Program-made: the position numbers and the translations under genes
Shown here: one piece after another, positions 17,057 to 17,369 of the stretch
Position numbering within the stretch: position 1 is the stretch's first letter
How the letters are laid out: each line of letters opens with the position of its first letter
The notes under the pieces: generated by a model
The model's input: only the letters and a program-made list of their open reading frames with translations
Database searches by the model: none
What the model was told of the DNA's origin: nothing
NCBI GenBank assembly: GCA_046546105.1
Contig: JBKGYN010000004.1
Coordinates: forward strand, 1-61,883
Length of the DNA stretch: 61,883 bases
Direction of reading: 5' to 3'
From: Candidatus Woesearchaeota archaeon
Lineage (GTDB): Archaea > Nanobdellota > Nanobdellia > Woesearchaeales > SKGA01

Positions 17057-17369
17057 TCACGGCTAGGCTGGGTGGTTGACCCTCACCTGTAACGTCAAAT
17101 GGGTCGTTGGGCGAGCCGAAGCGTGAAGGGCGGCATGCCGGTGCCGGCAGTCTCTTCCGGACTGTCGATGCCCTGTCCTTCTTGATCGTCGCGCGGGTCA
17201 ACCTGGTCACACGATCAGAAAAAACCACGCTTGTGGTCTCTGACGTGCCAGAGAGGCCTTGACGGGAGCAGCCATACGCTCGCGTGACGGTGTTTGAAGG
17301 GTCGCAGGGTGGAGGAAAGGAAGAGGTCAACTGCAGGTGTCGGTCCTTGTCCACCTTCACGCACGCCAC
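17057..17369 (+). ncRNA. ffs: Archaeal SRP RNA (7S); ends approximate
   Basis: TATA at about 17030. Alu domain with GGCTAGG, UGUAA and kissing loops GACCC/GGGTC. Long helix GCGTGAAGG (17121-29)/CCTTCACGC (17354-62). Helix 8 AGG-CCT-TGAC-GGG-AGCA-GCC. T-tract after the 3' end. Confidence 0.9.

What the first reader, a model, noticed from the sequence alone, without database searches (positions are those of the whole stretch)
17231..17275. SRP RNA helix 8 has a UGAC tetraloop and a hairpin inserted in the SRP54-binding loop
Deleting 15 nt (17239-17253) gives the canonical UGGU-CAGG-CCU-[loop]-GGG-AGCA-GCCA. As written, a 5-bp hairpin CTCTG-ACGTGC-CAGAG (17238-17253) occupies the position of the conserved C of CAGG. 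The tetraloop is UGAC (URRC type) instead of the GNRA typical of archaea. Both changes affect the most conserved part of the RNA, which binds SRP54 and stimulates FtsY.
Basis: partly seen in the sequence, partly recalled or inferred. Interest (0 to 1): 0.65.

Follow-up and report, generated by a model that had tools for sequence, protein, structure and literature searches.

The report
Splicing-type intron inside SRP RNA gene
The odd "hairpin" in this tiny salt-lake archaeon's signal-recognition-particle RNA is the tail end of a 45-base tRNA-type (bulge-helix-bulge) intron that most likely is cut out to leave a perfectly normal RNA, and similar introns sit at two spots of the same helix in about twenty related genomes, which I did not find described in the searchable literature.

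Summary
Window 17056-17369 (+) is the archaeal SRP RNA gene (RF01857). Compared with 30 relatives, the gene carries 45 extra bases (17209-17253), not 15, between GGUC and AGG on the 5' side of the helix-8 symmetric loop.

The insert has the anatomy of an archaeal bulge-helix-bulge intron:
- a 4-bp helix between exon CUGG and intron CCAG;
- 3-nt bulges UCA and AGA;
- an intron-internal helix CACG/CGUG.

Cutting after the second bulge base gives CUGGUC|AGGCC, the sequence of intron-less congeners. The spliced RNA is 89.8% identical to the closest relative.

Eleven genomes in nine families of this DPANN order carry an intron at this site. Their intron strand of the 4-bp helix changes to stay paired with the exon. 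Ten more genomes have a second intron site inside AGCA.

A splicing endonuclease is encoded. The RtcB ligase is missing from this assembly but present in congeners. No RNA data exist, so excision is inferred.

The UGAC tetraloop is shared by the whole family and is a known URRC-type variant, so it is ordinary. I found no paper reporting simple BHB introns in SRP RNA genes.

The parts
17030..17039 (+). TATA-like box TTTTATAAAG about 20-25 nt before the SRP RNA 5' end (inferred promoter)
   Evidence: read from the sequence; not tested
17056..17369 (+). SRP RNA gene (pre-RNA, 314 nt)
   Evidence: RF01857, 102.7 bits against a gathering score of 96.5, model 1-317; the only match in the genome
17056..17208 (+). 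exon 1, ending ...AACCUGGUC
   Evidence: alignment with intron-less relatives
17203..17206 (+). 5' strand of the central 4-bp helix H (CUGG, exon)
   Evidence: pairs with 17248-17251; covaries across 11 genomes
17207..17209 (+). 5' bulge UCA; predicted cut between C17208 and A17209
   Evidence: 3 unpaired nt between H and h' in all folds; invariant UCA in 11 introns
17209..17253 (+). 45-nt bulge-helix-bulge-type intron ACACGAUCAGAAAAAACCACGCUUGUGGUCUCUGACGUGCCAGAG
   Evidence: absent from 12 of 15 family members and from the closest relative G006; present in DNA contigs of 4 runs
17210..17213 (+). intron-internal helix h', 5' strand CACG
   Evidence: pairs with 17244-17247; compensatory changes in other carriers
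   Evidence: GGUCUCUGAC is part of an intron core conserved in G156 and G310
17244..17247 (+). intron-internal helix h', 3' strand CGUG
17248..17251 (+). 3' strand of the central helix H (CCAG, intron)
17252..17254 (+). 3' splice-site bulge or loop AGA; predicted cut between G17253 and A17254
   Evidence: only one conserved C-G pair (C17202-G17255) on the exon side, so the motif is relaxed
17254..17369 (+). exon 2, starting AGGCCUUGACGGGAGCAGCCAUA
   Evidence: alignment
17260..17263 (+). helix-8 apical tetraloop UGAC (URRC type)
   Evidence: PMC4091067
17370..17380 (+). T-run TTTTTTCTTT right after the gene (inferred terminator)
   Evidence: read from the sequence

Best explanation
The SRP RNA gene is interrupted by a 45-nt archaeal bulge-helix-bulge (BHB) type intron at window 17209-17253, between C and A of the CAGG strand of the helix-8 symmetric loop.

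Inferred mechanism:
1. In the precursor, the exon bases CUGG pair with the intron's 3'-terminal CCAG instead of their mature partner GCCA.
2. This presents the bulges UC|A and AG|A, four base pairs apart, next to an intron-internal helix.
3. The tRNA-splicing endonuclease (EndA, encoded on contig 14) cuts after the second base of each bulge.
4. An RtcB-type ligase joins the exons, and probably circularises the intron.
5. The product is a 269-nt SRP RNA with a standard helix 8: UGGU/GCCA stem, CAGG/AGCA loop, CCU/GGG stem and a UGAC tetraloop.

Shown here: the insert, its register, the covariation, the restored sequence and the endonuclease gene. Inferred: the cleavage and ligation in the cell.

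The UGAC tetraloop is a family-wide URRC-type variant and has nothing to do with the insert.
For: 1. Thirty relatives read CUGGUCAGGCC without interruption. G000, G002 and G010 carry 45, 37 and 46 extra nt at exactly this point.
2. All three inserts fold as a 4-bp helix, a 3-nt bulge UCA, and an internal helix whose sequence differs between genomes.
3. Eleven genomes in nine families have an intron at this site (30-50 nt). The exon/intron strands of the 4-bp helix are CUGG/CCAG, CGGG/CCCG, CGGG/CUCG, UGGG/CCUG, UGAG/CUCA, CACG/CGUG and CAGG/CCUG.
4. On the junction alignment, 94.5% of cells pair, against 78.1 +/- 2.3 in shuffles (0 of 500 reach the observed value). Eight of 10 pairs change on both sides. 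Registers slid by 1-3 columns give 15-53%.
5. Cutting after the second bulge base gives the exact sequence of intron-less relatives. The spliced RNA is 89.8% identical to G006 and folds into a canonical helix 8.
6. The same cutting rule and the same relaxed layout (no exon-side helix) turn the window's tRNA-Leu(GAG) gene, which has a D-loop intron, into a normal tRNA. Thirteen of the 23 tRNAs that aragorn detects carry introns.
7. EndA is present. It has both the N-terminal and the catalytic domain, and its best solved relative is 3IEY_A, the alpha subunit of the Nanoarchaeum enzyme.
8. RtcB is present in 24 of 26 related genomes, including G002 and G010.
9. No column of the SRP54 M domain separates carriers from non-carriers.
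10. The insert is in DNA contigs of four runs.
Against: - There is no RNA evidence. No RNA run holds this gene, and metatranscriptomes tried for two other carriers gave nothing over the intron.
- RtcB was not found in this genome's assembly. The assembly has 29 contigs and is 97.7% complete, so a gap is likely but not shown.
- The 3' splice site is not a clean 3-nt bulge. On the exon side only one conserved C-G pair flanks it, so the motif is relaxed.
- Only one EndA gene, of a single unit, was found. Classical alpha4 enzymes are reported to need strict motifs, although Kaneta et al. 2018 (PMC5829648) link DPANN alpha4 enzymes that carry an extra loop to disrupted tRNA genes.
- The rule 'cut after the second bulge base' comes from my own knowledge of the field. 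Here it was checked only indirectly.
Confidence: 0.85

Rival explanations
1. The insert is a lineage-specific expansion segment that stays in the mature SRP RNA as an extra hairpin at the SRP54-binding loop.
For: A hairpin can be drawn at 17238-17253 and appears in the whole-molecule MFE. The intron core is partly conserved between families, which could mean a function of its own. No RNA data exclude retention.
Against: - The insert is absent from the closest relative, which is 89.8% identical in the exons, and from 12 of 15 family members.
- Its 3' end is complementary to the exon strand that must pair elsewhere in mature helix 8, and it tracks exon changes in 11 genomes. A retained arm would not need this.
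- The flanking SRP54-site bases are unchanged.
- The SRP54 M domain has no carrier-specific change.
- By my own recollection of the Batey et al. 2000 structure of the M domain with 4.5S RNA, not checked here, a 45-nt arm in the CAGG strand would sit in the protein interface.
Confidence: 0.07
2. The SRP RNA gene has been disrupted by insertion of a small mobile element, and the gene is a pseudogene or is impaired.
For: Related intron cores occur next to tRNA genes and in a tRNA intron of the same genome, which suggests mobility. The introns are patchily distributed.
Against: - It is the only SRP RNA gene in a 97.7% complete genome.
- SRP54 is intact.
- The exons are as conserved as in intron-less relatives.
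- The same site is occupied in three congeneric species and in eight other families, always with an intact splice-motif register. Decay would not preserve that register.
Confidence: 0.04
3. The insert is removed, but by a route other than EndA/RtcB, such as self-cleavage or another RNase and ligase.
For: RtcB is not in this assembly, and the 3' site is relaxed.
Against: - No Rfam ribozyme or self-splicing intron family matches the introns.
- At 30-50 nt they are far too small for group I or II introns.
- The helix-bulge geometry is the EndA substrate.
- RtcB is present in the other carriers of the genus.
Confidence: 0.03
4. The insert is an assembly or binning artefact.
For: The genome is a metagenome-assembled genome in 29 contigs.
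Against: Contigs assembled independently from four runs carry the identical insert, on contigs up to 8.5 kb. Two other species' assemblies have an insert at the same position.
Confidence: 0.01

Closest known systems
Archaeal non-canonical (relaxed, HBh'-type) bulge-helix-bulge introns of pre-tRNAs, cut by the tRNA-splicing endonuclease EndA and joined by RtcB
   Same: A 4-bp central helix, 3-nt bulges and an intron-internal helix. The predicted cuts sit at symmetric positions in the bulges. The size (30-50 nt) fits. The same genome has many tRNA introns, including a D-loop intron with the same relaxed layout.
   Different: The host gene is the SRP RNA, not a tRNA. The site lies in the SRP54-binding symmetric loop of helix 8. 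The exon strand of the central helix is borrowed from a mature helix-8 stem.
Circularly permuted SRP RNA genes of Thermoproteus tenax and T. uzoniensis (Plagens et al. 2015, PMC4731332)
   Same: An SRP RNA whose maturation depends on a BHB motif, the splicing endonuclease and ligation. [quoted passage not shown]
   Different: Here the gene is collinear and carries a simple intron. No permutation or circular mature RNA is implied. The lineage is DPANN (Nanobdellota), not Thermoproteales.
BHB introns outside tRNA: rRNA introns and processing stems, and Cbf5 pre-mRNA in Crenarchaeota (summarised in PMC5829648)
   Same: They show that EndA acts on any RNA that presents the motif.
   Different: Different host RNAs. 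SRP RNA is not among the hosts listed there.
SRP RNAs with a URRC apical tetraloop
   Same: UGAC fits URRC. PMC4091067 calls URRC a 'widespread alternative loop' in bacterial SRP RNAs. I found the identical ...AGG(C/U)C(C/U)UGACGG(G/A)AGCAGCC... in Methanomassiliicoccales, Methanosarcinales, Nanohaloarchaea, Thermoplasmatales and several bacterial phyla.
   Different: Nothing notable. Within this order most families have GGAA, while family f1 and G030 have UGAC.

Membership tests
Archaeal SRP RNA (Rfam RF01857) | Covariance-model score at or above the gathering score over the full model | tested here: met
   102.7 bits against 96.5, model 1-317. The score is depressed by the insert; intron-less G006 scores 120.6.
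Archaeal SRP RNA (Rfam RF01857) | Helix 8 with a CAGG/AGCA symmetric loop, a 3-bp stem and a tetraloop | tested here: met
   Met only after removing 17209-17253: UGGU-CAGG-CCU-UGAC-GGG-AGCA-GCCA. The MFE of the spliced RNA shows this fold.
Archaeal bulge-helix-bulge intron | Central helix of exactly 4 bp between the two cleavage sites | tested here: met
   CUGG/CCAG. The helix is 100% paired in 11 carriers, and 3 of its 4 pairs change on both sides.
Archaeal bulge-helix-bulge intron | Two 3-nt bulges on opposite strands, each flanked by helices (strict hBHBh') | tested here: inconclusive
   The 5' bulge UCA is flanked by H and by h' (4-8 bp): met. The 3' site AGA has only one conserved C-G pair on the exon side. 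This is the relaxed HBh' form, not the strict form.
Archaeal bulge-helix-bulge intron | Cleavage at the bulges and ligation yield a functional exon junction | tested here: met
   Tested in silico only. CUGGUC|AGGCC equals the sequence of intron-less congeners. The same rule rebuilds tRNA-Leu.
Archaeal bulge-helix-bulge intron | The genome encodes the splicing endonuclease | tested here: met
   PF01974 and PF02778 match a 292-aa ORF on contig 14. Its best PDB relative is 3IEY_A, at 6.4e-37.
Archaeal bulge-helix-bulge intron | The genome encodes the RtcB ligase | tested here: inconclusive
   Not found in this assembly. Found in 24 of 26 relatives, including carriers G002 and G010.
Archaeal bulge-helix-bulge intron | Excision observed in RNA | not testable with these tools
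   No RNA run holds the gene. Attempts with two other carriers gave nothing.
Self-splicing introns or ribozymes (group I/II, hammerhead and others) | Match to a ribozyme or intron covariance model, and adequate size | tested here: not met
   Only RF01857 matches the interrupted genes, even at E up to 1. The inserts are 21-50 nt.
URRC-tetraloop SRP RNAs | Apical helix-8 loop of 4 nt reading U-R-R-C on a 3-bp stem | tested here: met
   UGAC at 17260-17263 on CCU/GGG. It is conserved in all 15 family members.

The most novel reading that the evidence does not exclude
The helix-8 introns may belong to a mobile family of small BHB introns that move between structured-RNA genes, both tRNAs and SRP RNA. 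On this reading, the two sides of the SRP54-binding loop are recurrent landing sites, for example by reverse splicing into a structure that resembles an EndA or ligase substrate.

The hints for this:
- A core of about 25 nt, C(A/G)CGU(U/C)AGAAUC..AGAUUCACUGG, is about 90% conserved between SRP introns of distant families.
- The same core is present in the window's own genome in the tRNA-Arg intron region and beside duplicated tRNA ends.
- Carriers are distributed patchily, even within one genus.

A corollary is that SRP biogenesis in these cells would depend on the tRNA-splicing machinery.
Probability: 0.25. Interest if true: 0.8.

Novelty: new member of a known kind. Interest (0 to 1): 0.6.

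Why it matters
BHB introns are known in tRNA, rRNA and one mRNA. For SRP RNA, only the permuted Thermoproteus genes are documented, and their authors postulated ancestral genes with simple BHB introns without having seen one.

- **Collinear, intron-bearing SRP RNA genes.** They occur in about 6% of sampled genomes of a large DPANN order, at two fixed sites that flank the SRP54-binding loop.
- **Maturation.** An essential part of the protein-targeting machinery would then depend on the tRNA-splicing enzymes.
- **Annotation.** The introns explain why these SRP RNAs score near or below the Rfam threshold. Several carriers fall under it, so annotation pipelines can miss or mis-fold them.
- **Intron mobility.** The set of 21 cases lets one ask how archaeal introns spread to new host genes.

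For the finding as written the message is deflationary. Mature helix 8 is most likely standard, and the UGAC loop is an ordinary variant.

Tried and rejected
- **Further copies.**
  - A pattern scan of 185,579 species' genomes for an insert at this site in UGAC-type SRP RNAs found only G002 and G010. The other 18 hits are uninterrupted SRP RNAs with a chance upstream TGGTC.
  - Two metagenome scans found no further copy.
- **RNA evidence.**
  - No RNA run holds the gene.
  - Metatranscriptome contigs laid on carriers G189 and G310 covered only the conserved 5' domain of other organisms, or nothing.
- **Recent transposition within the genome.** blastn-short of the intron against the whole genome found no second copy.
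- **Known RNA family in the intron core.** Rfam at E up to 1 finds only the SRP RNA itself.
- **A second (beta) EndA subunit.** The weak tblastn hits are a giant surface protein and a spurious ORF.
- **Motif census.** AGAATCNRAGATTCACT with 2 mismatches over 121 genomes was too noisy, because the reversed control also hits. Only a handful of matches have 0-1 mismatch.
- **Automatic BHB check of all tRNA introns called by aragorn.**
  - Only 4 of 13 fit when aragorn's boundaries are forced. Aragorn's boundaries are unreliable here, so I used the hand-checked tRNA-Leu case instead.
  - I could not work out the intron boundaries of tRNA-Arg(TCG).
- **Compensatory change in SRP54.** None found.
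It works only in this genome, because the intron core happens to contain GUGGUC.

Full report
**1. What is at the coordinates**

cmscan places one archaeal SRP RNA (RF01857) at 17056-17369 on the + strand. It scores 102.7 bits, just above the gathering score of 96.5, and helix 8 is badly aligned.

- GGTC;
- CTCTG-ACGTGC-CAGAG at 17238-17253;
- AGG CCT TGAC GGG AGCA GCCA.

A TATA-like TTTTATAAAG lies 20-25 nt upstream, and a T-run follows the gene. Both roles are inferred from the sequence.

**2. The insert is 45 nt, not 15**

A search of 40 related genomes shows SRP RNAs of 272-276 nt. The exceptions are this genome (314 nt) and two congeners, G002 (309 nt) and G010 (320 nt).

In the alignment every other relative reads ...AA(C/U)CUGGUC AGGC(C/U)(C/U)UGACGGGAGCAGCCAUA... 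without a break. The three long genes have 45, 37 and 46 extra bases exactly between GGUC and AGG.

The real exon therefore ends at C17208, and the insert is 17209-17253. G002 and G010 have no such look-alike, so the 15-nt solution is a coincidence of this sequence.

The insert is in the DNA. Contigs from four runs carry it with no differences. Two of those runs also contain a different, intron-less relative.

**3. Anatomy**

All three inserts fold the same way:
- Exon CUGG pairs with the last four intron bases before AG (CCAG).
- Three unpaired bases, UCA, follow on the 5' strand.
- Next comes an intron-internal helix whose sequence differs between genomes: CACG/CGUG, CACGUCG/CGAUGUG, AAGACGG/CUGUCUU.
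- After CCAG come AGA and then the exon.

This is the layout of an archaeal bulge-helix-bulge splice motif. In window coordinates:

| Element | Sequence | Position |
|---|---|---|
| H, exon strand | CUGG | 17203-17206 |
| H, intron strand | CCAG | 17248-17251 |
| 5' bulge | UCA | 17207-17209 |
| 3' bulge | AGA | 17252-17254 |
| h', 5' strand | CACG | 17210-17213 |
| h', 3' strand | CGUG | 17244-17247 |

Cutting after the second base of each bulge gives CUGGUC|AGGCC, the sequence of the intron-less relatives. That cutting rule comes from my own knowledge of the field. Here it reproduces a correct tRNA-Leu.

The exon-side helix is reduced to one conserved C-G pair, so the motif is of the relaxed (HBh') kind.

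**4. More than chance**

I measured SRP RNA gene lengths over a sample of the order, about 360 genes. Twenty-one are 290 nt or longer, and I fetched all of them.

*Class A: the window's site.* Eleven genes have an intron of 30-50 nt at this site:
- G000, G002 and G010 in the window's own family;
- G410, G244, G059, G199, G156, G310, G374 and G331 in eight other families.

The 5' bulge is UCA in all eleven. The 3' bulge is AGA in ten and AUA in one. The intron strand of H follows the exon strand:

| Exon / intron strands of H | Genomes |
|---|---|
| CUGG/CCAG | 4 |
| CGGG/CCCG | 2 |
| CGGG/CUCG | 1 |
| UGGG/CCUG | 1 |
| UGAG/CUCA | 1 |
| CACG/CGUG | 1 |
| CAGG/CCUG | 1 |

I counted pairs on junction constructs with the variable interior replaced by a linker:
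- 94.5% of cells pair, against 78.1 +/- 2.3 in shuffles; 0 of 500 shuffles reach the observed value.
- 8 of 10 pairs change on both sides.
- H is paired in 100% of cells.
- Sliding the register by 1-3 columns drops pairing to 15-53%.

One caveat: my script located the junctions by asking for a fully paired H and for the bulge letters. The junction itself, however, is fixed independently by the exon alignment.

*Class B: a second site.* The other ten genes have a 21-39-nt intron inside the AGCA strand (GGAAUGAA|...|GCAGCC). The logic is the same:
- H is AAUG/CAUU, and its exon strand borrows two tetraloop bases.
- The bulges are AAA and A(G/A)G.
- The internal helices covary.

**5. Product**

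The spliced RNA of this genome is 269 nt and 89.8% identical to that of G006, which has no intron. Its MFE shows a textbook helix 8.

Carriers are not each other's closest relatives. G006 (89.8% identical) and G009 (83.7%) lack the intron, while G002 (81.8%) and G010 (75%) have it. The intron has therefore been lost or gained repeatedly.

**6. Machinery**

- **EndA.**
  - It is encoded once, as a 292-aa ORF. About 120 aa at the N-terminus form a Lys/Ala/Thr-rich tail, followed by the two EndA domains.
  - Its best solved relative is chain A of 3IEY. Chain B of that entry is NEQ261, so this is the Nanoarchaeum equitans enzyme.
  - I found no beta-like paralogue.
  - Kaneta et al. 2018 (PMC5829648) report single-unit EndAs with an extra loop in DPANN lineages that have many disrupted tRNA genes.
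- **tRNA introns.** This genome fits that picture. Thirteen of the 23 tRNAs aragorn detects have introns. The tRNA-Leu(GAG) in the window has a D-loop intron with H CCGG/CCGG, bulges AG|A and AG|U, and no exon-side helix.
- **RtcB.** It is absent from this assembly but present in 24 of 26 relatives. I read this as an assembly gap, which is an inference.

**7.

- **Alternative fold.** A fold that restores a standard loop exists, but it requires removing 45 nt.
- **SRP54.** In the M domain, no column separates the three carriers from five non-carriers. The GSR..RIA.GSG region, which by my own knowledge (not checked here) is the conserved RNA-binding motif, is conserved in all eight.
- **Reads.** The DNA supports the insert. 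No RNA is available.
- **UGAC tetraloop.**
  - It is fixed in all 15 members of the family and in G030, while the other families have GGAA.
  - The same loop in the same context occurs in Methanomassiliicoccales, Methanosarcinales, Nanohaloarchaea, Thermoplasmatales and several bacterial phyla.
  - URRC is described as a widespread alternative to GNRA (PMC4091067).
  - It is ordinary.

**8. Comparison with what is known**

The closest documented case is the permuted SRP RNA of Thermoproteus. It is matured through a BHB motif, and its authors suggest descent from genes "with simple BHB introns" (PMC4731332).

Six full-text searches found no report of such introns in SRP RNA genes. The library lacks most subscription journals, so an earlier description cannot be excluded.

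It is an unchecked AI note, not independent evidence.

I file the feature as a BHB-type intron in a new host gene. The mechanism is known. The host, the two fixed sites and the frequency are new.

**9. Side lead**

Class A introns of distant families share a core. In G310 it reads CGCGUUAGAAUCGGAGAUUCACUGGUCUCUGACG, and G244, G059, G199, G156 and G374 carry close variants. The window's intron keeps the start (ACACGAUCAGAA) and the GGUCUCUGAC...GUGCCAGAG end, which it shares with G156.

Nearly the same core occurs in the window's own genome:
- in the intron region of tRNA-Arg(TCG);
- beside tRNA-Cys, flanked by a copy of the tRNA's end;
- near tRNA-Ser genes.

This hints at a mobile intron or repeat family. 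Rfam has nothing like it, and a motif census was too noisy to interpret.

**10. Verdict**

- The best explanation is a spliced BHB-type intron, with confidence 0.85.
- The decisive missing piece is RNA.

Noticed in passing
L060-L064, L066, L067, L069, L070, L076 (G189, G290, G225, G153, G362, G266, G287, G188, G088, G354): There is a second intron site in helix 8 of SRP RNA genes in other families of the order. A 21-39-nt insert sits inside the AGCA strand (GGAAUGAA|...|GCAGCC). H is AAUG/CAUU, the bulges are AAA and A(G/A)G, and the internal helices covary. No genome was seen with both sites occupied.
   Followed up: partly
own genome C13:28188-28363(-), C20:~7690-7720(+), C9:~6040-6110(+), C16:~30-70(+), C11:~300-420(-); L065, L068, L071-L074: A core of about 25 nt, C(A/G)CGU(U/C)AG(A/G)AUC..AGAUUCACU(G/A)G, is shared by SRP RNA introns of distant families. 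It also occurs in a tRNA-Arg intron region and in repeats that copy tRNA ends in the window's genome. This may be a mobile intron or tRNA-linked repeat family. It has no Rfam match.
   Followed up: partly
window 24765-24891 (+): The tRNA-Leu(GAG) gene has a 42-nt D-loop intron: H CCGG/CCGG, bulges AG|A and AG|U, no exon-side helix. Aragorn mis-calls it tRNA-Gly with a 52-nt intron. Splicing by the bulge rule gives a normal 85-nt tRNA-Leu, like the one at C17:12016-12101.
   Followed up: yes
own genome (all 29 contigs): No RtcB (PF01139) is found in the assembly, although 13 or more tRNA genes carry introns and nearly all congeners have RtcB. Probably an assembly gap.
   Followed up: partly
own genome C14:1474-2352 region (L034 1474-2352, -): The single EndA has an N-terminal extension of about 120 aa rich in K/A/T (KKTVKKAATKAAKKTTRKAGNKTATKTATKKA...), a histone-H1-like basic tail. 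It may add unspecific RNA binding. No beta subunit was found.
   Followed up: partly
own genome: Aragorn finds only 23 tRNA genes, 13 of them with introns and some at non-canonical positions. One is called 'tRNA-Stop(tta)'. Many tRNAs are probably missed because of multiple or non-canonical introns.
   Followed up: no
runs X3, X4 laid on window 17084-17315: The same samples hold a second, related organism whose SRP RNA lacks the intron. Its contig joins ...CAAACCUGGUC directly to AGG, with about 9 differences per 100 nt. The sequence resembles G009.
   Followed up: partly
G170:C77:5083-5297, G356:C12:20554-20717, G368:C11:11408-11578, G194:C19:693-832, G296:C22:2562-2785: Several genomes of the order give only partial or two-piece SRP RNA matches. 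These could be larger inserts, split or permuted genes, or contig ends.
   Followed up: no
G188:C32:6299-6563 and G332:C15:88-348: Two genomes have a second, weaker SRP RNA match on another contig. This could be contamination or a true second copy.
   Followed up: no
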